This document shows, one piece after another, positions 531 through 24,354 of a DNA stretch of 26,398 nt; position 1 is the stretch's first letter, and every line of letters starts with the position of its first letter. The position numbers and the translations under genes were made by a program. The notes under the pieces are model-generated. The model did not search any database. It worked only from the letters and a program-made list of their open reading frames with translations, and was not told the origin of the DNA. Source of the stretch: a virus (Duplodnaviria > Heunggongvirae > Uroviricota > Caudoviricetes); the IMG/VR virus record IMGVR_UViG_2534681993_000012; one strand, 5' to 3'.

Positions 531-562
531 GGTACTATTACCACAACGGTAACTATTACCAC
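531..562 (+). promoter_or_regulatory. tandem direct repeats GGTA(A)CTATTACCAC x2 immediately upstream of terS; candidate late-promoter activator or packaging-recognition site
   Basis: 531-544 GGTACTATTACCAC and 548-562 GGTAACTATTACCAC. The second copy runs into the palindrome ACCACGGTGGT and the terS ribosome-binding site. Confidence 0.45.
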
Positions 563-1166: not shown

Positions 1167-2632
1167 CAGATACAGCGTTATCTCCTGAAGAGCAGTTGAT
1201 CGAGGATATTGCAGGGTTCACTCACGATCCGCTTGGCTATGCCCTCTATGCGTTCCCGTGGGGGGAAGAGGGGACTGAACTGGCACATGCCACCGGCCCA
1301 CGTCAGTGGCAAGCCGATGCGTTCCGAGAGATACGTGATCACCTGCAGAATCCAGAGACGCGCTATCAGCCGCTTATGCTGGCACGCGCTTCGGGGCACG
1401 GTATTGGTAAATCAGCATTCATCTCAATGCTGATCAACTGGGGCATGTCCACTTGCGAGGATTGTAAGGTCGTGGTGACCGCCAACACCGACAACCAGCT
1501 ACGAACGAAGACCTGGCCGGAAATTATCAAGTGGTCGAACCTTGCTATCACGAAAGACTGGTTTACCTGTACCGCTACCGCGATGTACAGCAATGACCCT
1601 GGGCACGACAAGCGGTGGCGGGCTGACGCAATACCCTGGTCTGAGCACAACACTGAGGCATTCGCCGGACTACACAACGAGCGCAAACGCATCATCGTGG
1701 TATTCGATGAAGCGTCGAACATTGCGGATCTGGTGTGGGAAGTTGCTGAGGGTGCGCTTACGGACGAAGACACTGAGATTATCTGGGTGGCGTTCGGAAA
1801 CCCTACACGTAATACCGGGCGTTTTCGCGAATGTTTCCGCAAATACAAACACCGCTGGAAAACTGCGCAGATTGACAGCCGGACGGTGGAAGGTACTAAC
1901 AAACAGCAGTTGCAGAAATGGGTTGATGACTACGGGGAAGACAGCGACTTCGTTAAAATCCGTGTGCGCGGCATATTCCCTGATGCATCTGAATTGCAGT
2001 TTATCCCTACCGGTCTTACTGATGAGGCAATGAAACGGGTGGTAACCGCTGCGCAGGTGGCACATGCTCCGGTGATAATCGGTGTTGACCCGGCATATTC
2101 AGGCGTTGATGACGCGGTGATATACCTGCGGCAGGGGTTGCATAGTAAGGTGCTATGGACTGGCAACAAGACCACTGACGATCTGATTATGGCGAAGCGT
2201 ATCGCTGACTTTGAAGACCAGTACCAGGCTGACGCAGTGTTCATCGACTTCGGTTACGGAACTGGTCTGAAGTCAATCGGTGACGGCTGGGGTCGTACAT
2301 GGCAACTTGTTCCGTTCGGTGGCGCGTCTACTGACCCGCAGATGCTCAACAAGCGTGGGGAGATGTTCAACTCATGTAAGACATGGCTGAGGCTGGGCGG
2401 GATGCTGGATGACCAGGAAACAGCGGACGATCTGTCTGCGGCAGAGTACAAAGTTCGCGTGGACGGTAAAATCGTTATCGAACCGAAGGAAGATATCAAA
2501 GAACGACTTGGGCGTTCACCTGGTAAAGGCGATGCGCTACTGCTGACGTTTGCGTTCCCGGTAGCCAAGAAAACTAATGACCCACGGCAGCAGCAGGGCA
2601 GGGCTATAACAGACTATGACCCATTTGAATGA
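1163..2632 (+). CDS. terminase large subunit (ATPase plus nuclease)
   Basis: 489 aa; Walker A-like ARASGHGIGKS; C-terminal acidic motifs (VIIGVDPAYSGVDDAVIY) consistent with an RNase H-like nuclease domain; position after the small subunit. Confidence 0.9.
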   Translation: MTDTALSPEEQLIEDIAGFTHDPLGYALYAFPWGEEGTELAHATGPRQWQADAFREIRDHLQNPETRYQPLMLARASGHGIGKSAFISMLINWGMSTCEDCKVVVTANTDNQLRTKTWPEIIKWSNLAITKDWFTCTATAMYSNDPGHDKRWRADAIPWSEHNTEAFAGLHNERKRIIVVFDEASNIADLVWEVAEGALTDEDTEIIWVAFGNPTRNTGRFRECFRKYKHRWKTAQIDSRTVEGTNKQQLQKWVDDYGEDSDFVKIRVRGIFPDASELQFIPTGLTDEAMKRVVTAAQVAHAPVIIGVDPAYSGVDDAVIYLRQGLHSKVLWTGNKTTDDLIMAKRIADFEDQYQADAVFIDFGYGTGLKSIGDGWGRTWQLVPFGGASTDPQMLNKRGEMFNSCKTWLRLGGMLDDQETADDLSAAEYKVRVDGKIVIEPKEDIKERLGRSPGKGDALLLTFAFPVAKKTNDPRQQQGRAITDYDPFE

Positions 2633-2635
2633 TTT

Positions 2636-3460
2636 TTACTTTTGTGTTTTTGATTTTCTTTGATAGGTGGAATTTAAATCACCATTTATATTTACTAGAG
2701 GATTATTCAATAATGTACTGATTTCTGGATTGTTAATTCCAGTAACGCCAAATTTCTTTACGGACTCATTAAGGTCTTGTAATGATTTTAGACCTACAAA
2801 CCCATTAGCAATTGTATTATTTGTTGCCAAAGGAATGTTTTCCTTATAGGACTCATATTCGTTTTTTAAATTTTTGTGAGCTTTTTCTAGATTTTCTAGT
2901 TTAGATGTTGTTTCATCAATAACCTTAGATAATTCTAAAATACGAGCTTGTGCTGCGCGCAGTTCTGTCTCCCTCTCTTTCAATTCAGATGTGAGTTGTC
3001 CCATTCTGTCTTTTGAAAGAATTATTTCCTCTTTCATGTCTTGAATGTTTTTTTCAGCGCCTGTTTTTACTTTTTCGTAAGTAATGTCTTTTTTAGCCAG
3101 CAATCTCTGTAGCCGTGTTTCACGTTGTATTTTTCTTGCCTTCCGGTGGTTTTCGATTGAGTCATTATTATCAAGAGGTTTTGCTTGCCATACGTTAATG
3201 ATATTGTTTACCCATGGTAATAGGCAGCAGATAGTAATTACAGATAAGCATGGATAAAACATAACAGTTTTCCATGTGCTGTTATCTGAGATGTATGAAA
3301 TTTTATCTATTATATTTGATTTGCTAAAAAACAGATAAAGAAGTGATTTCCAGTTGAAGGCGCACCAGGACATAACAAAAGCACCAAGCACAGGGTTTTT
3401 GGCTCTATGCACGGCAGTGTTTGCAGTAGATAAAAACAGCTCTTTGAACGATTCAAACAT
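2636..3460 (-). CDS. accessory (moron) membrane protein: two predicted N-terminal TM helices, long coiled-coil, C-terminal globular domain; function unknown (candidate superinfection-exclusion or abortive-infection protein)
   Basis: ORF track 2636..3556; preferred start ATG at 3460 (MFESFKELF...) with AAGGT Shine-Dalgarno, downstream of a TATAAT -10. Hydrophobic segments NPVLGAFVMSWCAFNWKSLLYLFF and VMFYPCLSVITICCLLPWVNNIINVW, then a heptad-rich KE/RL region. Visibly AT-rich relative to the flanking terminase and portal genes. Confidence 0.65.
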   Translation of the reverse strand: MFESFKELFLSTANTAVHRAKNPVLGAFVMSWCAFNWKSLLYLFFSKSNIIDKISYISDNSTWKTVMFYPCLSVITICCLLPWVNNIINVWQAKPLDNNDSIENHRKARKIQRETRLQRLLAKKDITYEKVKTGAEKNIQDMKEEIILSKDRMGQLTSELKERETELRAAQARILELSKVIDETTSKLENLEKAHKNLKNEYESYKENIPLATNNTIANGFVGLKSLQDLNESVKKFGVTGINNPEISTLLNNPLVNINGDLNSTYQRKSKTQK

Positions 3461-3485
3461 ACTAATTACCTTAAAGTTTTTCATG

Positions 3486-3514
3486 ATTATACCTTTAAGG
3501 TAATTTGTGGTCAT
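3486..3514 (-). promoter_or_regulatory. sigma70-like promoter with embedded operator dyad for the membrane-protein gene
   Basis: Minus strand: -35 ATGACC (3514-3509), 17-bp spacer, -10 TATAAT (3491-3486). The dyad aTACCT-TTA-AGGTAA (3489-3503) lies in the spacer and overlaps the -10. Confidence 0.5.
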
Positions 3515-3526
3515 CAGGCAAAAAAA

Positions 3527-3545
3527 TACCCGGCGAACCGGGCGA
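3527..3545 (-). terminator. intrinsic terminator (minus strand only)
   Basis: Minus strand reads CCCGG-TTCG-CCGGG then TATTTTTTT. No U-run on the + strand, so late-operon read-through is not blocked. Confidence 0.5.
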
Positions 3546-3620
3546 ACTGGAAGCAATGAGTTATGCCTTCCGTGGCTGTACTGGTTTACAGCATGAAGTC
3601 ATCGCAATGGCGTCCTGCTG

Positions 3621-3663
3621 TAAAAAGGGCGGTGATAGTCCTTCAAGGGAAACTATCACCGCC
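3621..3663 (-). terminator. intrinsic terminator downstream of the tRNA (minus strand only)
   Basis: 12-bp stem GGCGGTGATAGT/ACTATCACCGCC with 12-nt loop, followed on the minus strand by CTTTTTA. Confidence 0.55.
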
Positions 3664-3706
3664 AAGCACCTGGAACTTCTGGCATCACGGTCCTTAGGCG
3701 TGATTC

Positions 3707-3783
3707 TGGCGTGGCATGCAGGATTCGAACCTGCGACCAACCGCTTAGAAGGCGGTTGCTCTGTCCAACTGAGCTAATGCCAC
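3707..3783 (-). tRNA. tRNA-Arg (anticodon UCU, decodes AGA); phage-borne
   Basis: Minus strand folds as a 77-nt cloverleaf: acceptor GTGGCAT/ATGCCAC, D-arm GCTC...GAGC, anticodon stem ACCGC/GCGGT with loop CTTCTAA (U33-UCU-A37), T-arm GCAGG-TTCGAAT-CCTGC, discriminator G and encoded CCA. Resembles but differs from host argU as I recall it. Confidence 0.85.
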
Positions 3784-4106: not shown

Positions 4107-4121
4107 TTACCTGAAAGGTAA
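4107..4121. promoter_or_regulatory. operator-like dyad TTACCT-GAA-AGGTAA (perfect arms)
   Basis: Perfect 6-3-6 inverted repeat. Lies about 320 bp 5' of the tRNA on the minus strand and about 90 bp upstream of the + strand 68-aa gene; the target promoter is ambiguous. Confidence 0.55.
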
Positions 4122-4432: not shown

Positions 4433-6112
4433 ATGGCGGAAACAACTAAAGAGCGATTGAACAAACAGTTCGCACAACTTGAAAGCGAGCGTCAGTCGTT
4501 CGAGCCGCACTGGCGCGAGTTGAGTGATTACATCAACCCGCGTGGTTCCCGCTTTCTGACTTCTGAGGTCAACCGTAACGATCGACGCAATACACGCATT
4601 ATTGATTCGACCGGGACTATGGCGGCGCGCACTCTCGCCAGCGGCATGATGTCAGGCATCACAAGCCCCGCGCGTCCGTGGTTTCGCCTGGCTACGCCAG
4701 ATCCTGAAATGATGGATTATGGCCCTGTTAAGTTGTGGCTTGAGGCAGTGCAGAACCGCATGAACGATATGTTCAATAAGTCGAATCTCTATCAGTCGCT
4801 GCCGCAGTTATACGGAAGCCTCGGCACATACAGCACCGGTGCAATGGCGGTGATGGAGGATGACGAGGACATCATTCGTACAATGCCATTCCCGATAGGA
4901 AGTTACTACCTGGCTAACTCACCTCGTGGCAGTGTGGACACCTGTTTTCGCAAGTTCTCTATGACTGTTCGTCAGCTTGTTCAGGAGTTCGGGCTAAATA
5001 ACGTCAGCGAATCCGTAAAAAGCATGTGGGAAAGCGGCACCTACGAGAAGTGGATTGAAGTGATGCATTCGGTTTACCCGAACATTGACCGCGATACATC
5101 GAAGCTGGATAGCAAGAACAAGCCATTCAAATCGGTTTATTACGAGGTTGGTGGCGATAACGACAGGTTGTTGCGTGAGTCCGGATTCGATGAGTTTCCA
5201 ATTATGGCTCCGCGCTGGGAAGTTAACGGCGAAGATGTTTATGGATCATCATGCCCGGGTATGCTGGCGCTTGGACCTGTTAAGGCATTGCAGCTTCTCC
5301 AGAAGCGCAAGTCGCAGTTGATTGATAAAGCCACCAATCCGCCGATGGTTGCTCCGACTTCCCTCAAGAATCAGCGCGCCTCCCTTCTTCCTGGCGACAT
5401 CACGTATATCGATCAGATTACTGGTCAGGATGGCTTCAGGCCTGCTTATCTGGTTAACCCCAGTACAGCAGATTTGGTGGCAGACATTCAGGACACTCGT
5501 CAAATCATTAACAGCGCCTACTTTGTCGATCTGTTCATGATGTTGCAGAACATCAATACCCGCTCGATGCCTGTTGAAGCGGTGATCGAAATGAAAGAAG
5601 AAAAACTTCTGATGTTGGGGCCGGTTCTGGAGCGTCTGAACGACGAATGTCTTAATCCTCTCATTGACCGCGCTTTCTCGATGATGGTGCGTAAAAACAT
5701 GCTGCCGCCACCGCCTGACGCGATGGAAGGCATGCCCCTGAAGGTCGAATACATTTCCGTCATGGCTCAGGCGCAGAAGTCTATCGGCCTGTCCAGTCTG
5801 GCGTCCACGGTTAACTTCATTGGTCAACTTGCGCAAGCGAAACCAGAAGCTCTCGACAAACTCAACGTTGATCAGGCGATCGATGCATTCGCTGATATGT
5901 CCGGAGTGTCTCCAACCGTCATTGTTCCGCAGGAACAGGTTGAGCAGGCTCGCCAGCAACGGGCACAGCAGCAACAGCAGCAACAAATGATGGCGATGGG
6001 GATGGCGGCGGCACAGGGTGCCAAGACGCTAAGCGAAGCTAAAACTTCGGATCCGAGTGTGTTGTCAGCTATGGCGAATGCAGTTAGTGGTCAGGGTGGG
6101 CAATCACAATGA
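4433..6112 (+). CDS. portal (head-to-tail connector) protein
   Basis: 559 aa; position after terminase; C-terminal Gln/Ala/Met-rich tail (QQQQQQQMMAMGMAAAQGAK) of the kind I recall in podovirus connectors; strong Shine-Dalgarno. Confidence 0.8.
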   Translation: MAETTKERLNKQFAQLESERQSFEPHWRELSDYINPRGSRFLTSEVNRNDRRNTRIIDSTGTMAARTLASGMMSGITSPARPWFRLATPDPEMMDYGPVKLWLEAVQNRMNDMFNKSNLYQSLPQLYGSLGTYSTGAMAVMEDDEDIIRTMPFPIGSYYLANSPRGSVDTCFRKFSMTVRQLVQEFGLNNVSESVKSMWESGTYEKWIEVMHSVYPNIDRDTSKLDSKNKPFKSVYYEVGGDNDRLLRESGFDEFPIMAPRWEVNGEDVYGSSCPGMLALGPVKALQLLQKRKSQLIDKATNPPMVAPTSLKNQRASLLPGDITYIDQITGQDGFRPAYLVNPSTADLVADIQDTRQIINSAYFVDLFMMLQNINTRSMPVEAVIEMKEEKLLMLGPVLERLNDECLNPLIDRAFSMMVRKNMLPPPPDAMEGMPLKVEYISVMAQAQKSIGLSSLASTVNFIGQLAQAKPEALDKLNVDQAIDAFADMSGVSPTVIVPQEQVEQARQQRAQQQQQQQMMAMGMAAAQGAKTLSEAKTSDPSVLSAMANAVSGQGGQSQ

Positions 6113-19100: not shown

Positions 19101-19564
19101 GGGTGCTAGTATCTGGTATCCAGCAGGGCGATGCTGCATTCTATCTTGGTGCGCTTGGCACGATTGCGCTTGGCTCAATGGTCTATATGATGAAACAGAA
19201 GTTAAGCGGTCGCGATATCGACTACAGCTGGAATAACCTTGTGAAAGAGGGGATCGACCGGGGCGGAATGCTTGGCTGGCTCTCTGAGCCGCTGAATACC
19301 GTTGAGAACATAAGCGGCGGTAGGTTTGGTCTTGGCGCGATGTTTGGTGCGCCTCCGGTATCAAGGTTTCAGAGTCGTAATGCTATTGGTGCTTTACTTG
19401 GTCCTACCTTTGATCTTGGCGGTGATGCCGCGACGGTTGCGAATGGTGTACTTAACGGAGAATTTGACAGCCAGCAAACCCACGCGGTCCGTAAAATGCT
19501 ACCTTTTCAGAACCTGTGGGCGATATCACCGTTACTAAATAAAGTTGAAGAGCAGATGAAATAG
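16175..19564 (+). CDS. largest internal core or ejection protein (1129 aa; coiled-coil-rich)
   Basis: TAATG coupling; long charged heptad regions (KLQARMMKESSDLKTRLDDIAQAK...); last gene of the coupled operon, stop TAG 19562-19564. Confidence 0.8.
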   Translation: MPIYEQDPKELLGEDIQQIAAPDDSNFYMETPSLLSAVNPFTSDQRVQRSRQAAFRIDNTLGSFIASAPFSQFDRVEGYNPFDNDAADIKGYEDFADSFINSGSHEETMAIKHRIDKQRTDREYLSEMGGAGTISSLAMGMIDPVNVAAMFIPVGAVARGGSIAETAGRFALANAAGGGVSEAALQATQEARSPMESVSNVVVDALVGGILGAGAQLLAGPSAREAVVNSVGNHLRGMDSPQSIGAAQVFNTTLDQEQLAGLGLANKTLSVTPAGRLAQSPSLVSRQINQQLAENNYFFAKNDEGLATFTAVETKIKQYDAMLYKQMEATRDAYQQYSKSVSARGVKRMNFIDFNEAVGMAMRRGDQSDIPEVSQAAARIRPIFETTKARMQELGILPEDIDVVTAKSYLPRIYKFDKILSDRTEFRGRIANWIQGISAKGADKAGQRIERINSLLKTAEESAPRADALASEIAEAEKWSGKKILLMEELDKRNKLISQETDTQARLTRIEKELAETSSEKLQARMMKESSDLKTRLDDIAQAKSELPVYQRHMELLDNPRKYRSELRRLQKRANSTTRLNASRERALKQMEPLSREEAEDAADEIVNKIIGAPSGLVPADIIPERLVGRAGFTKSRTLLIPDERIEDFLESDVNYIMESYLRQVAPEIELTAQFGRKDMGEQIRQVSEEYTRLIKEAKTPKRRAVLEKQREADIRDITAMRDRLLGTYGAPQDPRSFFVRAGRVARNINFLRLLGGMTVSAATDLMRPMMQHGLRKSLGPMVSMLKNMDSVKIATRDLREMAVGLDYVLSTRTKAIADLTDPYSRRSAAERGLNWMTQKFGNWTLMNQWNSALKSWSGMIVQSRILDAARQVSAGGTLSKSEMRKMAQVGINEDVLRRIGEQFGKHGEDMDGLLTGHSHLWDDRFAREIFQSAVLKDVDSVIVTPGVGDTPLFFSKEGWKMITQFKTFIFAQHNRVLVSGIQQGDAAFYLGALGTIALGSMVYMMKQKLSGRDIDYSWNNLVKEGIDRGGMLGWLSEPLNTVENISGGRFGLGAMFGAPPVSRFQSRNAIGALLGPTFDLGGDAATVANGVLNGEFDSQQTHAVRKMLPFQNLWAISPLLNKVEEQMK

Positions 19565-20005
19565 CTATTCACAATTAGTGATGGCGTATGTATCAAATAT
19601 ATTGCCATCACTAAATACATACCTATACTCAATCTCTCCGCCAAGGTGAATAAATGCTTTCATTTGCCTGTTGGAGCAAATGCTCGATTTTGAATAATTT
19701 CGCATTACACTCTTTAATTTATTTTCTAAGGTTACATCACCATTATAAACTTTTGATAAATAGCTGTTGTTGTAATTAAGATGCGCTACAACTAAAAGTT
19801 TGTTTAGTATTGCATTTATTGAAACAATAGACATATTATCATTCAATTTTATGGGAAGTGACTTTCCTGCTTCTGATGCAATTTTGTTTGCATGTGCACA
19901 CATATCCTCATTTATTAAATTCTTAAAACATATGTCGTTTGCAAACGAAAAAATTGGTAGGATAAACAAAACGGTAGCTGTAATAGCGTGCATCGGCTTA
20001 ATCAT
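19565..20005 (-). CDS. secreted or periplasmic moron protein (146 aa) with Sec signal peptide; function unknown
   Basis: N-terminus MIKPMHAITATVLFILPIFSFA then NDI (signal peptide); four Cys; very AT-rich. Its stop (CTA, 19565-19567) directly abuts the stop of the 1129-aa gene. Confidence 0.55.
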   Translation of the reverse strand: MIKPMHAITATVLFILPIFSFANDICFKNLINEDMCAHANKIASEAGKSLPIKLNDNMSIVSINAILNKLLVVAHLNYNNSYLSKVYNGDVTLENKLKSVMRNYSKSSICSNRQMKAFIHLGGEIEYRYVFSDGNIFDTYAITNCE

Positions 20006-20221: not shown

Positions 20222-21127
20222 CTATATTTCCAGACACCTGTTATCACTTAACCCATTACTGGCTTGCTGCCGTAGATATTCCCGTGGCGAGCGATAACCC
20301 AGTGCACTATGCGGATGCCATTCGTTATAATGCTCGAACGCCTCTGCAAGGTTCTTTGCTGCCGTTAACCCGTCTGGTTTGGGCATGACACTGATGTAGT
20401 CACGCTTTATCGTTTTCACGAAGCTCTCTGCTATGCCGTTACTCTCCGGACTCCGCACCGCCGTGCTCTTCGGTTCAAGCCCCAACATCCGGGCAAACTG
20501 CCGTGTTTCATTAGCCCGGTAGCATGAACCATTATCCGTCAGCCACTCTACTGGAGACGCCGGAAGCTCGTTGCCGAAGCGGCGTTCCACCGCTCCCAGC
20601 ATGACGTCCTGTACTGTTTCACTGTTGAAGCCGCCCGTAGTGACCGCCCAGTGCAGTGCCTCACGGTCACAGCAGTCCAGCGCGAACGTGACTCGCAGTT
20701 TTTCTCCGTTATCACAGCGGAACTCGAACCCGTCAGAGCACCATCGCTGATTACTTTCTTTCACAGCCACTCTGCCTGTATGTGCCCGTTTCGATGGCGG
20801 TACAGCAGGTTTTCGCTCAAGCAACAGCGCATTCTGGCGCATGATCCGGTAAACACGTTTGGCATTGATCGCAGGCATACCATCAAGTTCTGCCTGTCTG
20901 CGAAGCAGCGCCCATACCCGACGATAACCATACGTGGGCAGCTCTCCGATAACATGGTGTATACGGAGAAGCACATCCGTATCATCAGTGTGACGACTGC
21001 GGCGGCCATCCATCCAGTCATCGGTTCGTCTGAGAATGACGTGCAACTGCGCACGCGACACCCGGAGACAACGGCTGACTAAGCTTACTCCCCATCCCCG
21101 GGCAATAAGGGCGCGTGCGCTATCCAC
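20222..21127 (-). CDS. insD: IS2 transposase OrfB (InsD)
   Basis: 301-aa translation [23 protein letters not shown]... recognised as IS2 InsD. Overlaps insC in the -1 frame with slippery CAAAAAAG at 21127-21134 (programmed frameshift typical of the IS3 family). Confidence 0.9.
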
Positions 21128-21450
21128 TTTTTTGCCCGTCCATATTCAACGGCTTCTTTGAGGAGTTCATTTTCCATCGTTTTCTTGCCGAGCAGGCGCT
21201 GGAGTTCTTTAATCTGCTTCATGGCGGCAGCAAGTTCAGAGGCAGGAACAACCTGTTCTCCGGCGGCGACAGCAGTAAGACTTCCTTCCTGGTATTGCTT
21301 ACGCCAGAGAAATAACTGGCTGGCTGCTACACCATGTTGCCGGGCAACGAGGGAGACCGTCATCCCTGGTTCAAAGCTCTGCTGAACAATTGCGATCTTT
21401 TCCTGTGTGGTACGCCGTCTGCGTTTCTCCGGTCCTAAGACATCAATCAT
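21085..21450 (-). CDS. insC: IS2 OrfA (InsC), HTH protein
   Basis: [25 protein letters not shown]...; ATG 21450 follows GGAGA. The ORF-track extension to 21495 lacks a ribosome-binding site. Confidence 0.85.
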
Positions 21451-21541
21451 CTGCTCTCCAATGACTAGTCTAAAAACTAGTATTAAGACTATCACTTAAA
21501 TAAGTGATACTGGTTGTCTGGAGATTCAGGGGGCCAGTCTA

Positions 21542-21816: not shown

Positions 21817-21841
21817 AGGCCGCTTTCGCGGCCTTGTTTTT
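21817..21841 (+). terminator. intrinsic terminator
   Basis: AGGCCGC-TTTC-GCGGCCT followed by TGTTTTT. Confidence 0.6.
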
Positions 21842-22001
21842 AACGAATGCCACCGCCGCCCGGGCGGGAATCCGCAGAACGCCCACCGCAGCGGGAGCCG
21901 TCAGCGGCAGTATCGCTGTCGTGCTGACAACGACCGGCAAAGGCCTGAGTTGAAGCTACCAGAGACAACAAAACGAACAGTGCAGCAAATGCTTTTTTCA
22001 T
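21840..22001 (-). CDS. small secreted peptide (53-aa precursor; about 31-aa mature, Gly/Arg/Asp/Ser-rich with 2 Cys)
   Basis: ORF track 21840..22073; the internal start MKKAFAALFVLLSLVASTQAFA gives a canonical Sec signal peptide with AFA cleavage motif. GC-rich, unlike its neighbours. Confidence 0.45.
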   Translation of the reverse strand: MKKAFAALFVLLSLVASTQAFAGRCQHDSDTAADGSRCGGRSADSRPGGGGIR

Positions 22002-22014
22002 TGTGACATTTCCA

Positions 22015-22042
22015 TCTATAAGCCACCTCAATGTGGCGTCAA
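22015..22042 (-). promoter_or_regulatory. candidate sigma70 promoter of the small-peptide gene
   Basis: Minus strand: -35 TTGACG (22042-22037), 16-bp spacer, -10 TATAGA (22020-22015). Confidence 0.35.
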
Positions 22043-22082
22043 TGAGTGTAGCACTGACTTTTGTTTCGTCCATAAAAAACTA

Positions 22083-22595
22083 CTATGCAGGCTTTTTGGA
22101 TTTGTACGAATAATCCCACGGATAAACATTTCTACTAAGTGGGGCTGTATTCGTTCGTTCATGAAATAATTTTGTGAAATTCAATACGGAATCCATCCAA
22201 ACTTTTGCGTTAGCTTTGGTGTGTGCGGGCGGGTCCCAATAAGCTAGTAAGGCTGCATCTCTTATTTCATTGACTGCATATATGAGATATGCGTTACTGG
22301 TTGGTTTTGGCCTGTAATTTCCTTGTTCATCAATCAATCCATATGACCACTCATCCCAACACTGTTCAGTACATGAGTATGAATATGATGCATATTCACC
22401 AATATTGACATGAACCTTTCTGAGATGGAAGCCTAATACTTCGTCTGGTCTTTCAAAAAGAGTATCTTTTCCCAGATCAGGATGATGACCATGACGCCAG
22501 TGTTGTTTAAAAGCATCTTTTAGCGAAATCAGAAAGTCATCAGTTTTAAACTCACCAGTAGGTATAACCTTCCCGCTATACTCACTCAAAAACAT
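22083..22595 (-). CDS. uncharacterised protein (170 aa), distal gene of a two-gene operon; His/Cys-rich segments (HWRHGHHP, CTEQCWDEW)
   Basis: ATG 22595 follows GAGGAA; the start overlaps the last 14 nt of the upstream gene (translational coupling). No family recognised by eye. Confidence 0.6.
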   Translation of the reverse strand: MFLSEYSGKVIPTGEFKTDDFLISLKDAFKQHWRHGHHPDLGKDTLFERPDEVLGFHLRKVHVNIGEYASYSYSCTEQCWDEWSYGLIDEQGNYRPKPTSNAYLIYAVNEIRDAALLAYWDPPAHTKANAKVWMDSVLNFTKLFHERTNTAPLSRNVYPWDYSYKSKKPA

Positions 22596-22908
22596 CGAAT
22601 TCCTCTTCCTTCATATGCGTTTCTAATGAGTTAAGCTGGCGGAAAGATATCTCTTTTGATTCTGCAGATGAGAGCTTTTTTATCCGCTTTATATTCTTTG
22701 TGATAGGAATAGACATTGTATGCACATCAGCGGATGCTCTTGGCTTTGTGCTGATAAAAATATGGCGCAATGCCGCATTTTCACTATTGAACGAGCCAAT
22801 AGCTGATTTACGTGCTACAACCTTACCAGTAAAAATACGACTCTTGCTACGCTTTGCATGAGTTCCGCTTCTTACCGGACCTCTCATCACGAATCCAAGT
22901 TTTGTCAT
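22582..22908 (-). CDS. uncharacterised basic protein (108 aa), proximal gene of the two-gene operon
   Basis: ATG 22908 follows GGAGA (7-nt spacer); Lys/Arg-rich N-terminal half, acidic C-terminus; operator dyad 43-57 bp upstream. Confidence 0.6.
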   Translation of the reverse strand: MTKLGFVMRGPVRSGTHAKRSKSRIFTGKVVARKSAIGSFNSENAALRHIFISTKPRASADVHTMSIPITKNIKRIKKLSSAESKEISFRQLNSLETHMKEEEFDVFE

Positions 22909-22950
22909 CTTTAATCTCCGGTAAGTTACAGGTATAAAATAAAAACAGGT

Positions 22951-22965
22951 TTACCTTTAAGGTAA
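22951..22965. promoter_or_regulatory. operator-like dyad TTACCT-TTA-AGGTAA (perfect arms) upstream of the 108/170 operon
   Basis: Perfect 6-3-6 inverted repeat in the 5' region of the minus-strand operon. Confidence 0.6.
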
Positions 22966-23031: not shown

Positions 23032-23742
23032 TCAGAAGAACCCAGCCTTGTCGTTGATGTACTCCGCGTGGGTCTGGATATCACGCAGGCATTTGCTCAC
23101 ACCGACGATGTAGCAGAACATGGTGGTCAGCTCCGCCGCCGCGCCCGATACGTCGTGCCCGTCTTCCTGTAACTGGTTCAGCAGATTCATCAGCAGTGAG
23201 TGCTCCGTCAGGCCGAGAACACCAGACGGCGAATGAATCAGGCTACGGTAGCCGGGCTTCAGTGGGGCACTGTAGGTTTTGTTCTCTATCTTCATTGCCT
23301 GCATTACTGCTGACGCCGTGGCGTTGGCTACCTGGTCGGCAACCATCTTTATGCGTTCTTCCTGCGGTAGCGAGTTTTTAATGTAACTTCCGGTGCGGCG
23401 GATCTGAGGAAGAACCTCACCTGTAACCCATTTACGAAAGCGGTAGGGGATAGTGCCTGGTGTCACCGCATCGCGGCAGCGGAGGATCAGTGTGTAGAGG
23501 CCTGACTCGGAGATGATGTTGATCTCTTTTACTCGGCTGTCAAAAATTGCACGATGTTCATGCCCTATGTTGAACATAGACCTTTCATCATCATCCAGTT
23601 TTTCAAGTGCTTGGGTGACGTTTTGGATACGCAGCGCACTACAAACGTCTTGGGCTACAAACCATGGTTGGCCATCGATAATGATGGAACGGATAGGGTT
23701 AACAGATTCAAATTTGAAGATGGCAGTTTGAGCATTAGCCAT
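23032..23742 (-). CDS. phage antirepressor, BRO-N family (N-terminal Bro-N DNA-binding domain plus C-terminal Ant-like domain)
   Basis: ORF track 23032..23757 (GTG); ATG 23742 follows GGAG. N-terminus FKFESVNPIRSIIIDGQPWFVAQDVCSALRIQN is a typical Bro-N signature; the C-terminal 80 aa are homologous to the ORF at 24058-24315. Confidence 0.85.
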   Translation of the reverse strand: MANAQTAIFKFESVNPIRSIIIDGQPWFVAQDVCSALRIQNVTQALEKLDDDERSMFNIGHEHRAIFDSRVKEINIISESGLYTLILRCRDAVTPGTIPYRFRKWVTGEVLPQIRRTGSYIKNSLPQEERIKMVADQVANATASAVMQAMKIENKTYSAPLKPGYRSLIHSPSGVLGLTEHSLLMNLLNQLQEDGHDVSGAAAELTTMFCYIVGVSKCLRDIQTHAEYINDKAGFF

Positions 23743-23770
23743 GGTGGTTATCTCCACTTAGTGATTTTAA

Positions 23771-24057: not shown

Positions 24058-24315
24058 TTATCTGGTTTGTTTTCGTAATTGTTCGGCACAATAGTCGAGA
24101 TGTGTTTGCAGATCCCGCATAGACATCTGTGAGCTGGTGACGTAGTTAATCAGTGCAGTCAGTTCGGCAAGTGGGCCATCGACATTAAATCCATCCTTAT
24201 CGAGATCCCGGAGTAATTTCATCAAGTGCGATCCCTCCACCAGTGACCTGACGCCTCCCGGCGTGTGAATCCTTTCGGTAAATCCGTCTTCCAGTGGATA
24301 GTGATACTGCTGCAT
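24058..24315 (-). CDS. short antirepressor paralogue (85 aa) corresponding to the C-terminal domain of the adjacent BRO-N antirepressor; LexA-controlled
   Basis: ORF track 24058..24333 (TTG); ATG 24315 follows GGAGA (8-nt spacer). HTPGGVRSLVEGSHLMKLLRDLDKDGFNVDGPLAELTALINYVTSSQMSMRDLQTHLDY aligns with the antirepressor segment HSPSGVLGLTEHSLLMNLLNQLQEDGHDVSGAAAELTTMFCYIVGVSKCLRDIQTHAEY. Confidence 0.7.
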   Translation of the reverse strand: MQQYHYPLEDGFTERIHTPGGVRSLVEGSHLMKLLRDLDKDGFNVDGPLAELTALINYVTSSQMSMRDLQTHLDYCAEQLRKQTR

Positions 24316-24334
24316 CTTATCTTCTCCATGCAAT

Positions 24335-24354
24335 AACTGTATAAATATACAGTA
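24335..24354. promoter_or_regulatory. LexA (SOS) box
   Basis: AACTGTATAAATATACAGTA: CTGT-N8-ACAG with AT-rich spacer, about 18/20 to the consensus TACTGTATATATATACAGTA; sits 10 nt upstream of the ribosome-binding site of the short paralogue. Confidence 0.75.

What the first reader, a model, noticed from the sequence alone, without database searches (positions are those of the whole stretch)
2636..3514. AT-rich membrane/coiled-coil protein inserted between terminase and portal with its own operator-controlled promoter
A 274-aa protein with two N-terminal TM helices, a cytoplasmic coiled-coil of about 110 residues and a C-terminal domain is encoded antisense to the packaging operon, with no spacer after the large-terminase stop. 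It has a near-consensus promoter overlapped by the operator dyad, and unidirectional terminators shield it from the tRNA unit upstream while leaving late-operon read-through intact. This architecture and placement fit a lysogen-expressed function such as superinfection exclusion or abortive infection, but no known family is recognisable.
Basis: partly seen in the sequence, partly recalled or inferred. Interest (0 to 1): 0.65.

Follow-up and report, generated by a model that had tools for sequence, protein, structure and literature searches.

The report
Repressor-wired, hypervariable phage membrane protein cassette
This is a real single-gene cargo cassette in an epsilon15/phiV10-like E. coli prophage, encoding a membrane-anchored coiled-coil protein of a large uncharacterised family whose tail is swapped between otherwise near-identical phages and whose promoter carries the prophage repressor's operator, which makes it a good but untested candidate for a phage-versus-phage conflict gene.

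Summary
A 274-aa ORF (2636-3460, minus strand, 34% GC) lies 3 nt from the terL stop. It has a conserved sigma-70 promoter (ATGACC-17-TATAAT) overlapped by a perfect TACC-N5-GGTA dyad, with minus-strand-only terminators upstream.

The host element is an epsilon15/phiV10-like (Uetakevirus) prophage. The protein is PHROG 4780 (unknown function), with no Pfam, NCBIfam, PDB or defence-library family.

New here:
- The first ~160 residues (two hydrophobic helices plus a basic stalk) are under strong purifying selection (dN/dS 0.07). The remainder falls into at least 40 unrelated coiled-coil/tail types. There is no folded C-terminal domain.
- Relatives sit as lone antisense genes in five kinds of temperate element and once in a chromosome.
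- The same dyad precedes terS, the portal unit and the ant region. The epsilon15 GenBank record annotates it as the repressor site.

So the gene looks repressor-controlled: low in a stable lysogen, on after infection or SOS induction.

A superinfection-exclusion or abortive-infection role remains the best guess. It rests on context and diversification only. There is no similarity to P22 SieA or any known system.

The parts
2636..3460 (-). Gene X: 274-aa protein, PHROG 4780, stop codon included
   Evidence: ORF. Family start at M9 of the longer ORF. PHROG 4780 E=1e-121 over residues 9-282. 141 homologues.
2981..3460 (-). Conserved module, codons 1-160: amphipathic N-helix, two hydrophobic helices (23-46, 63-91), basic juxtamembrane stalk
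   Evidence: 66 invariant columns. dN/dS 0.07. AF2 pLDDT 81.5 with a 110-sequence alignment. Hydropathy. The profile finds 2544 50%-identity clusters.
2636..2980 (-). Hypervariable part, codons 161-274: coiled coil to about residue 208, then a low-complexity, low-confidence tail
   Evidence: 40 C-terminal clusters among 113 homologues; 131 pairs with N-part >=90% and C-part <35% identity. Identity collapses after codon ~150. pLDDT below 50 for the tail.
3486..3514 (-). Sigma-70-type promoter: -35 ATGACC (3514-3509), 17-nt spacer, -10 TATAAT (3491-3486); predicted start near 3479
   Evidence: 10/12 consensus match. Hexamers and spacing are conserved in E. coli, Salmonella and Klebsiella loci and in IMG/VR loci.
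3490..3502 (.). Operator-type dyad TACCTTTAAGGTA over the promoter spacer and the first 2 nt of the -10 box
   Evidence: Enrichment. Present within 100 nt upstream of X in 63 of 67 IMG/VR loci. The same motif is annotated as a repressor site in epsilon15.
3467..3479 (.). Second, imperfect dyad copy (TACCTTAAAGTTT) over +1 to +13, overlapping the ribosome-binding site
   Evidence: Partly conserved. Significance uncertain.
2633..3519 (.). Limits of the 887-bp cargo cassette: gene plus promoter only
   Evidence: Homology to phiV10, phiv142-3 and epsilon15 stops at the terL stop on one side and at the terminator T-run on the other.
3520..3543 (-). Intrinsic terminator (GCCCGGTTCGCCGGGT plus T7) just upstream of the X promoter; part of the conserved phage backbone
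   Evidence: Compensatory stem changes CCCGG/CCGGG against CCCAC/GTGGG. Annotated as a terminator in epsilon15.
3628..3663 (-). 14-bp hairpin, terminator-like, downstream of the tRNA
3707..3783 (-). tRNA-Arg(UCU), same strand as X
   Evidence: ARAGORN. Rfam tRNA 73 bits.
2630..2632 (+). terL stop codon, 3 nt from the X stop
   Evidence: Sequence. terL identified through matches to annotated phage records.
4108..4120 (.). Same dyad (TACCTGAAAGGTA) upstream of the small ORF/portal unit; counterpart of the annotated epsilon15 repressor site
539..551 (.). TACC-N5-GGTA dyad upstream of terS
   Evidence: A counterpart is annotated at epsilon15 12-27.

Best explanation
Gene X is a bona fide accessory gene of epsilon15/phiV10-like temperate podophages. 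It encodes an inner-membrane protein built from two parts.

- A conserved module: an interfacial N-helix, a two-helix membrane hairpin, and a basic stalk that continues TM2 into the cytoplasm.
- A long cytoplasmic coiled coil with a floppy tail. This part is exchanged by recombination between otherwise near-identical phages.

The gene travels as an 887-bp AT-rich cassette in the gap between the terS-terL unit and the tRNA/portal unit. It is transcribed against its neighbours from its own strong promoter. That promoter carries the phage's Rep-type operator across positions -23 to -11.

I therefore infer that it belongs to the Rep regulon. It would be held low in the established lysogen and fire when Rep is absent or inactivated, that is, in the first minutes after infection or after SOS-driven LexA release, Ant synthesis and Rep inactivation.

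The most likely job is a conflict function at the membrane: exclusion of superinfecting phage, or abortive-type killing. In this model the conserved membrane module is the working part and the variable coil sets what is recognised.

Shown: the gene, the architecture, the selection pattern, the mobility and the operator placement. Inferred: the topology, Rep binding, the timing of expression and the function.
For: Gene and family:
- PHROG 4780 at E=1e-121.
- 141 close homologues.
- 2544 clusters at 50% identity for the N-terminal module.

Modularity and selection:
- The N-terminal 160 aa form one cluster with mean 79% identity. The C-part falls into 40 clusters with median 19% identity.
- dN/dS is 0.07 over codons 1-150, with an identity cliff after about codon 150.
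- X is 27-54% identical where TerL, portal and the major capsid protein are 68-99% identical.

Accessory status:
- The same slot holds a 123-aa unrelated gene in phiV10, nothing in phiv142-3, and a 40%-identical homologue in EC.W1-9.
- Relatives are lone antisense genes in Uetakevirus prophages of E. coli, Salmonella, Citrobacter and Pantoea.
- 57 of 70 IMG/VR loci show the same arrangement.
- Other contexts: a Klebsiella lambdoid prophage, ~112-kb contigs encoding ParA, DnaB-type helicase and tail proteins (read from memory as SSU5-like phage-plasmids), a Vibrio inovirus and the Cronobacter chromosome.
- X is always AT-rich relative to its neighbours.

Regulation:
- Promoter, conserved across loci.
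- Dyad enrichment.
- Three dyads per Uetakevirus locus, at the portal unit, X and terS.
- The epsilon15 record annotates the motif as the repressor site.
- Rep and Ant homologues of PDB 5D50 are present.
- A LexA box lies upstream of the ant unit.

Precedent: P22 sieA is also a lone gene convergent with a late gene and has its own promoter. [quoted passage not shown]
Against: - There is no sequence or fold link to any characterised exclusion, abortive-infection or defence protein.
- The predicted variable part is cytoplasmic. That fits poorly with blocking an incoming injection conduit from the periplasmic side.
- A repressor-silenced gene cannot protect a stable lysogen unless repression is leaky.
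- The operator identity rests on a GenBank annotation and on motif distribution, not on binding data that I could read.
- Coiled coils tolerate sequence change, so part of the C-terminal divergence may reflect low constraint.
- The copy in the Cronobacter chromosome, and the copies in the Klebsiella lambdoid prophage and the Cronobacter chromosome, whose dyad is degenerate or absent, show the gene can be kept outside this regulatory circuit.
Confidence: 0.4

Rival explanations
1. X is a lysogenic-conversion gene made continuously from the prophage. It provides superinfection exclusion or abortive infection to the lysogen, and the dyad only trims its level or is not bound in vivo.
For: - Lone antisense orientation and its own promoter are typical of prophage-expressed morons, and match the arrangement of P22 sieA (PMC10883804).
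- Copies in the Klebsiella lambdoid prophage and the Cronobacter chromosome keep the promoter but have a degenerate or absent dyad, so constitutive expression is tolerated.
- The C-part is hypervariable.
Against: - A perfect dyad sits at -23 to -11 in 63 of 67 phage loci.
- The same motif lies in front of terS, the portal unit and the ant region, units expected to be silent in a lysogen, and is annotated as the repressor site.
- There is no expression data.
Confidence: 0.25
2. X serves the phage's own lytic programme and is not used against competitors. Made early after derepression, it could act as a membrane-anchored anti-defence factor, a host-takeover factor (for example blocking division or transport), or a holin-like timing device.
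For: - Its regulation matches that of the lytic units.
- It has stayed in the same slot from E. coli phages to Pantoea phages.
- A two-helix hairpin with a charged cytoplasmic tail resembles class II holin topology (my own knowledge).
- Fast-evolving early accessory genes are often counter-defence genes (my own knowledge).
Against: - It is dispensable. phiv142-3 has nothing in the slot, and phiV10 and epsilon15 carry an unrelated gene.
- It is kept in a non-phage chromosomal site in Cronobacter.
- It has no holin or anti-defence family match.
- Epsilon15 carries a separate lysis cassette.
Confidence: 0.2
3. X is a low-constraint membrane tether with no conflict role. In this view its C-terminal diversity simply reflects the ease with which coiled coils and disordered tails drift and recombine.
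For: - C-terminal lengths vary from about 70 to 190 residues.
- The sequence is compositionally simple.
- All database 'hits' are generic coiled-coil matches.
Against: - 131 pairs have at least 90% identical N-parts and unrelated C-parts.
- A sharp identity cliff appears within one gene in phages whose flanking genes are 97-99% identical. This needs repeated replacement, not drift.
- The gene has been retained across five kinds of element.
Confidence: 0.1
4. The ORF is not the functional product. In this view the promoter exists to drive antisense transcription into terL, since there is a 3-nt spacer and no strong terminator.
For: The genes are convergent with a 3-nt spacer. Only a weak hairpin lies inside terL at 2597-2581.
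Against: - Protein-level conservation extends down to about 25% identity, with invariant R19, P23, G26, W32, N36, W37, P70 and P82.
- dN/dS is 0.07.
- An open frame of 274 codons in 34%-GC DNA is very unlikely by chance.
Confidence: 0.03

Closest known systems
PHROG 4780 (with the more distant PHROGs 13369 and 35327), unknown function
   Same: Direct membership. The HMM match has E=1e-121 over the whole 274-aa protein.
   Different: The PHROG carries no function. The modular structure, the contexts and the regulation described here are not part of that entry.
P22 SieA, an inner-membrane superinfection-exclusion protein of a short-tailed temperate phage (PMC10883804)
   Same: - A single gene, antisense and convergent with the end of a late transcription unit, with its own promoter.
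- An inner-membrane protein.
- Several highly diverged sequence types exist.
   Different: - No detectable similarity: BLASTP E=1.7 and hhalign probability 0.3%.
- SieA is 162-164 aa with three predicted TM helices and no coiled coil.
[quoted passage not shown]
Morons of lambdoid phages, for example the HK97 gp15 exclusion protein (my own knowledge of the Hendrix/Juhala concept and of Cumby et al. 2012)
   Same: - An extra gene that is present or absent between close relatives.
- Deviant base composition.
- Its own promoter.
- Sits between late genes.
- A membrane protein.
   Different: - No clear terminator of its own.
- The promoter is overlapped by the phage repressor's operator.
- The family is old in this slot (Pantoea to E. 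coli) rather than a recent one-off gain.
ZorA of Zorya defence (my own knowledge of the published structures)
   Same: A membrane-embedded part followed by a long cytoplasmic coiled-coil 'tail' that is thought to pass a signal inward.
   Different: - No PADLOC ZorA match.
- X has 2 hydrophobic helices, no MotA-like fold, no ZorB/C/D partners, and stands alone.
i-spanin Rz and class II holins (my own knowledge)
   Same: N-terminal membrane anchoring with a coiled coil (Rz), or a two-helix hairpin with a charged C-tail (class II holins).
   Different: - X is not in the lysis cassette.
- X has no o-spanin partner.
- The coil is predicted to be cytoplasmic.
- X is about three times the size of a class II holin.
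- There are no Pfam or PHROG matches to either.

Membership tests
PHROG 4780 | Full-length match to the family HMM | tested here: met
   E=1.1e-121, residues 9-282 against profile positions 1-269 of 275.
Moron (accessory cassette) | Present in some phages and absent or replaced in close relatives at the same locus | tested here: met
   phiV10 carries a 123-aa unrelated gene, phiv142-3 carries none, and EC.W1-9 carries a 40%-identical homologue. The cassette limits are 2633-3519.
Moron (accessory cassette) | Own promoter | tested here: met
   A 10/12 sigma-70 match, conserved in diverged loci. Sequence level only.
Moron (accessory cassette) | Own terminator | tested here: inconclusive
   The spacer to terL is 3 nt. 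The only candidate is a weak 5-bp hairpin inside terL at 2597-2581.
Moron (accessory cassette) | Base composition unlike the surrounding genome | tested here: met
   33.8% GC against 52-54% in the flanks. The same contrast holds in seven other loci.
Moron (accessory cassette) | Transcribed from the repressed prophage | not testable with these tools
   No expression data are available. The operator over the promoter argues against it.
Rep regulon of epsilon15/SPC32H-like phages | TACC-N5-GGTA dyad at the promoter, as at other units of the same phage | tested here: met
   The motif is annotated 'repressor; lysogeny' in AY150271.2.
Rep regulon of epsilon15/SPC32H-like phages | The cognate Rep/Ant pair is encoded by the same prophage | tested here: met
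   The Rep homologue matches PDB 5D50_A at E=4e-42, in the genome with a 100%-identical X region. Ant matches 5D50_E at E=2e-13.
Rep regulon of epsilon15/SPC32H-like phages | Rep binds the site and represses transcription | not testable with these tools
   Needs EMSA, footprinting or a reporter assay. The primary papers (Kropinski 2007; Kim and Ryu 2013) are not held.
P22 SieA family | Sequence or profile similarity to SieA | tested here: not met
   BLASTP E=1.7; hhalign probability 0.3%.
Pfam-catalogued exclusion, holin or spanin families | Match to a curated model | tested here: not met
   Only sub-threshold coiled-coil matches for X and for 42 plus 16 relatives.
Known anti-phage defence systems (PADLOC-DB v2) | Match to a system-specific model outside the coiled-coil region | tested here: not met
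   The best hits are the LmuB, DruC and JetC coiled-coil regions, residues ~105-230, E >= 6e-5. Nothing matches the membrane module.
i-spanin (Rz) | Single N-terminal TM helix, periplasmic coiled coil, o-spanin partner, located in the lysis cassette | tested here: not met
   X has two hydrophobic segments and a stretch after TM2 with 10 K/R in 34 residues (net charge +5), which predicts a cytoplasmic coil. It is a lone gene between terL and portal.

The most novel reading that the evidence does not exclude
X-family proteins would be a new, widespread single-gene phage-conflict system of temperate elements. The conserved 2-helix membrane module acts as the effector, and a recombinationally swapped cytoplasmic coiled coil acts as the specificity determinant. 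In Uetakeviruses the system is placed under direct control of the prophage repressor, so it is deployed on infection or induction rather than in the resting lysogen. That would amount to 'lytic-phase exclusion' in a temperate podophage.
Probability: 0.3. Interest if true: 0.7.

Novelty: new variant of a known kind. Interest (0 to 1): 0.5.

Why it matters
- X is an uncharacterised family of about 2,500 sequence clusters. It rides in podophages, lambdoid phages, phage-plasmids and filamentous phages of Enterobacterales and Vibrio.
- Its split into a conserved core and a swapped tail is the signature expected of an effector-plus-sensor protein in an arms race.
- It can be tested directly with one cloned gene and tail swaps.
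- The operator finding also bears on how prophage cargo is regulated. Here a cargo gene appears to have been wired into the repressor regulon instead of escaping it, which would change when and for whom such cargo acts.
- If the gene proves inert, the locus still documents a defined cargo slot and operator map for Uetakeviruses, some of which (for example phiV10) infect E. coli O157:H7.

Tried and rejected
- **Remote homology.** Pfam, NCBIfam, PADLOC and PHROGs scans of X and of 42 and 16 relatives gave only coiled-coil noise (SMC, LmuB, JetC, ATG16 and similar). A PDB sequence search with the N-module profile found nothing below E=0.47.
- **Profile search of the 5.8-billion set with distant relatives.** It returned only the close family, so that search was wasted.
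- **Literature.** No paper mentions WP_000787770. Searches on phiV10, Uetakevirus and exclusion found nothing on this gene. The epsilon15 genome paper and the SPC32H antirepression paper are not held. The ZX5 paper gives no operator data.
- **Earlier miscount.** My first count of '405 E. coli genomes' was mostly backbone flank matches. The corrected figure is 61 of 5,426 for the N-terminal coding part.
- **Operator covariation.** I tested whether the inner 5 nt of the X operator co-vary with the other operators in the same phage. The inner bases vary freely between sites, so the test is uninformative.
- **Klebsiella IncF plasmid hits.** These are IS1-truncated remnants.
- **Rfam.** Nothing besides the tRNA between 2400 and 4500.
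Full report
**What the window is.** The region around the finding matches Escherichia phages phiV10, TL-2011b, ZX5 and phiv142-3, and more distantly Salmonella phage epsilon15. All are Uetakevirus short-tailed temperate phages. An E. coli chromosome carries the 2600-3560 stretch at 100% identity inside a prophage integrated next to guaA.

Gene order in the window is:
- terS, 492-1166
- terL, 1163-2632
- the target ORF on the opposite strand
- tRNA-Arg(UCU), 3783-3707, also on the minus strand
- a 68-aa ORF
- portal, 4433-6112

.

**Check of the observation.**
- The mechanical ORF runs from 3556 and there is an in-frame ATG at 3484. All homologues start at the Met encoded at 3460.
- The 3484 ATG is missing from other loci and sits one base after the -10 box.
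- GC content is 33.8%, against 52-54% for the flanking genes.
- The stop codons of terL and X are 3 nt apart.
- The promoter scan gives ATGACC-17-TATAAT at 3514-3486, a 10/12 match.
- The dyad TACCTTTAAGGTA at 3490-3502 covers the spacer and the first two bases of the -10 box.
- Two terminator-like hairpins lie upstream on the minus strand only, at 3543-3528 with a T7 run and at 3663-3628. The first shows compensatory stem changes between E. coli and Salmonella phages.
- Hydropathy shows one unambiguous transmembrane segment (residues 63-91). A second, aromatic-rich segment (23-46) is weak on Kyte-Doolittle but as favourable as the first on the Wimley-White octanol scale.
- With a 110-sequence alignment, AF2 models helices 2-19, 23-35/37-45 (kinked at the invariant N36), 50-60, and one continuous helix from 63 to 163, at pLDDT 81.5.
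- The full-length model continues this helix to about residue 208 at pLDDT above 90. The last ~65 residues fall below 50.
- The stretch after TM2 has 10 K/R in 34 residues, so by the positive-inside rule the coil is cytoplasmic. This is an inference.
- The claimed C-terminal domain is not supported.

**What the protein is.** It matches PHROG 4780 (unknown function) end to end at E=1e-121. It matches nothing specific in Pfam, NCBIfam, PADLOC or the PDB. All other hits are generic coiled-coil matches. Fold searches return only long helices.

A word-indexed search finds 141 homologues in Enterobacteriaceae, all labelled hypothetical. A profile of the first 164 residues, run against 1.84 billion cluster representatives, finds 2544 proteins at E<=0.001 and 372 at E<=1e-10. 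In nearly all of the 150 best hits listed, the module sits at or near the N-terminus, and most are 200-400 aa long. Across this wider set R19, P23, G26, F28, W32, N36, W37, P70 and P82 are nearly invariant.

**Two-part architecture.** Among 113 close homologues:
- The first 160 residues form one cluster with mean 79% identity.
- The remainder falls into 40 clusters at 50% identity, with a median pairwise identity of 19%.
- 131 pairs have N-parts at least 90% identical and C-parts below 35% identical.

Against the allele of E. coli F41, codons 1-150 give dS 0.355 and dN 0.026, so dN/dS is 0.07. Nucleotide identity falls from 96-99% to about 45% after codon ~150.

In a prophage whose TerL and portal are 97% and 99% identical to those of the window, X is only 47% identical. 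In Pantoea phages the flanking proteins are 68-86% identical while X is 27-30%. The variable segment is bounded by two conserved stretches, the N-module coding region and the terL 3' end. That arrangement would let homologous recombination swap it. This last point is an inference.

**Where relatives live.**
- The same slot (terL | X | portal), always on the opposite strand, holds family members in prophages of E. coli, Salmonella, Citrobacter and Pantoea.
- 57 of 70 IMG/VR loci show the same arrangement, and in all 57 terL lies convergent at the 3' side of X.
- Others are lone antisense genes in:
  - the region between the replication and late-regulation genes (the nin-region equivalent) of a Klebsiella lambdoid prophage;
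  - a position next to parA on contigs of about 112 kb (Klebsiella/Raoultella) that also encode DnaB-type helicase and tail proteins, which I read, from memory, as an SSU5-like phage-plasmid;
  - the accessory region of the Vibrio filamentous phage vB_VipaK.
- One lineage sits in the Cronobacter sakazakii chromosome between ordinary metabolic genes.
- Klebsiella IncF plasmids carry IS1-truncated remnants.
- X is AT-rich relative to its neighbours in every context checked.
- The slot itself is a cargo site. phiV10 and epsilon15 hold an unrelated 121-123-aa gene there, phiv142-3 holds nothing, and EC.W1-9 holds a 40%-identical X.
- Backbone homology stops exactly at the terL stop and at the T-run of the terminator. 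The cassette is therefore 2633-3519, that is, gene plus promoter only.
- The Klebsiella lambdoid copy also carries about 200 nt of the Uetakevirus upstream block. This points to transfer out of a Uetakevirus.

**The operator.**
- TACCTTNAAGGTA with up to 2 mismatches occurs 6 times in the window, against 0.75 expected. It occurs 13 times in the 41-kb locus holding the prophage's early and structural regions and host flank, against 0.85 expected.
- Exact TACC-N5-GGTA occurs 5 times in the window, against 0.41 expected.
- The sites are intergenic: upstream of terS (539), X (3490), the portal unit (4108), a minus-strand accessory operon (22952) and the ant region (24013, 24393).
- In the whole prophage they also lie next to int, around the repressor/cro-like genes and after the replication genes.
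- The epsilon15 GenBank record annotates ATTACCTAAAAGGTAAT upstream of gp3/portal, and six more such sites, as protein_bind 'repressor; lysogeny'. Those sites include three beside the repressor gene and single sites upstream of terS and of the tailspike.
- The prophage's 194-aa HTH protein matches the SPC32H repressor structure 5D50 chain A over its full length (E=4e-42). The window's Ant matches 5D50 chain E.
- A perfect LexA box, CTGTATAAATATACAG at 24337-24352, precedes the ant unit. This fits the LexA-Ant-Rep switch described for SPC32H, which I know from memory only because the papers are not held.
- In IMG/VR, 63 of 67 X loci have the dyad within 100 nt upstream, in the same register with the -10 box. 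Each Uetakevirus locus shows three dyads, at the portal unit, X and terS.
- The X-promoter layout, in which the right half-site GGTA runs into the -10 box, recurs at 4108 and 24393.
- Loci outside Uetakeviruses keep the promoter. The dyad is degenerate in the Klebsiella lambdoid copy and absent in the Cronobacter copy; other non-Uetakevirus loci keep it but have no companion dyads nearby.
- With a predicted start near 3479, the dyad spans -23 to -11, a position that blocks RNA polymerase.

I therefore read X as part of the repressor-controlled set: low in the stable lysogen and derepressed on infection or induction. It remains an inference until binding and transcription are measured.

**How it most likely works.**

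*Shown:* a conserved, selected membrane module; a replaced, highly diverse coiled-coil part; autonomous, antisense, mobile single-gene organisation in many temperate elements; and an operator-overlapped promoter.

*Inferred:* N-in/C-in topology; oligomerisation through the coil; Rep control.

My best reading is a conflict protein acting at the inner membrane. The conserved module would do the work, by blocking entry or permeabilising the membrane. The variable coil would determine what is recognised. The protein would be deployed when Rep is absent.

The nearest functional precedent is P22 SieA. [quoted passage not shown] Its gene is likewise a lone gene convergent with a late gene, with its own promoter. 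X shows no similarity to it and differs in size, helix number, coil and presumed regulation.

The rivals are:
- a constitutively expressed lysogen defence;
- a lytic-cycle helper (anti-defence, takeover or timing);
- a low-constraint tether;
- an antisense-RNA device, which the protein-level conservation makes very unlikely.

**Novelty and verdict.** The gene family is already catalogued without function, so the gene as such is not new. What is new:
- the split into a conserved core and a swapped tail;
- the spread over five kinds of temperate element;
- the long residence in one cargo slot;
- the repressor-type operator on its promoter.

It is a promising but wholly untested candidate for a new exclusion- or abortive-type protein. 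Interest is moderate.

Noticed in passing
window 3520-3706 (minus strand): A non-coding block of about 185 nt lies between the tRNA-Arg and the X promoter. It is conserved in all Uetakeviruses whatever the slot cargo, and was co-transferred with X into a Klebsiella lambdoid prophage. It contains a 14-bp hairpin (3663-3628), a second hairpin (3624-3585) and the terminator with compensatory changes. It could be a tRNA trailer or a small RNA. There is no Rfam match.
   Followed up: partly
window 24337-24352: A perfect LexA box, CTGTATAAATATACAG, lies upstream of a 91-aa ORF (24058-24333, minus) and the Ant gene (23032-23757, minus). This fits SOS control of the antirepressor, as in SPC32H-like phages.
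   Followed up: partly
window 19565-20005 (minus strand): A second AT-rich antisense ORF (146 aa, PHROG 8772 unknown, ~33% GC) starts its stop codon directly after the end of the 1129-aa ORF at 19564. This is the same convergent, zero-spacer layout as X.
   Followed up: no
window 20222-21495 (minus strand): Two overlapping transposase ORFs (PHROG 151 and 157), which look like an IS element, are inserted downstream of the long ORF that ends at 19564.
   Followed up: no
window 21840-22964: An AT-rich minus-strand operon of three small ORFs (108, 170 and 77 aa). The last matches a PHROG labelled 'moron, membrane associated protein'. The operon is preceded by an exact copy of the dyad at 22952-22964.
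   Followed up: no
L001 (phiV10) 1930-2301 and L018 (epsilon15) 753-1118: The alternative cargo of the same slot is a 121-123-aa gene annotated as similar to Sf6 gene 66. It starts right after the conserved terminator, has a ribosome-binding site but no promoter of its own, and has no dyad.
   Followed up: no
L020 and L021 (Pantoea prophages): Pantoea Uetakeviruses keep TACC-N5-GGTA dyads before the portal unit, terS and a DUF1064-family ORF. Upstream of X there is only a near-dyad (TACCAGTCTGGTT / CACCTATCTGGTT) immediately before the start codon, so the operator-promoter layout differs there.
   Followed up: partly
L027 (Vibrio inovirus vB_VipaK) 515-1285: An X-superfamily member (26% identity over the membrane module) sits in the variable accessory region of an f237-like filamentous phage of V. 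parahaemolyticus.
   Followed up: no
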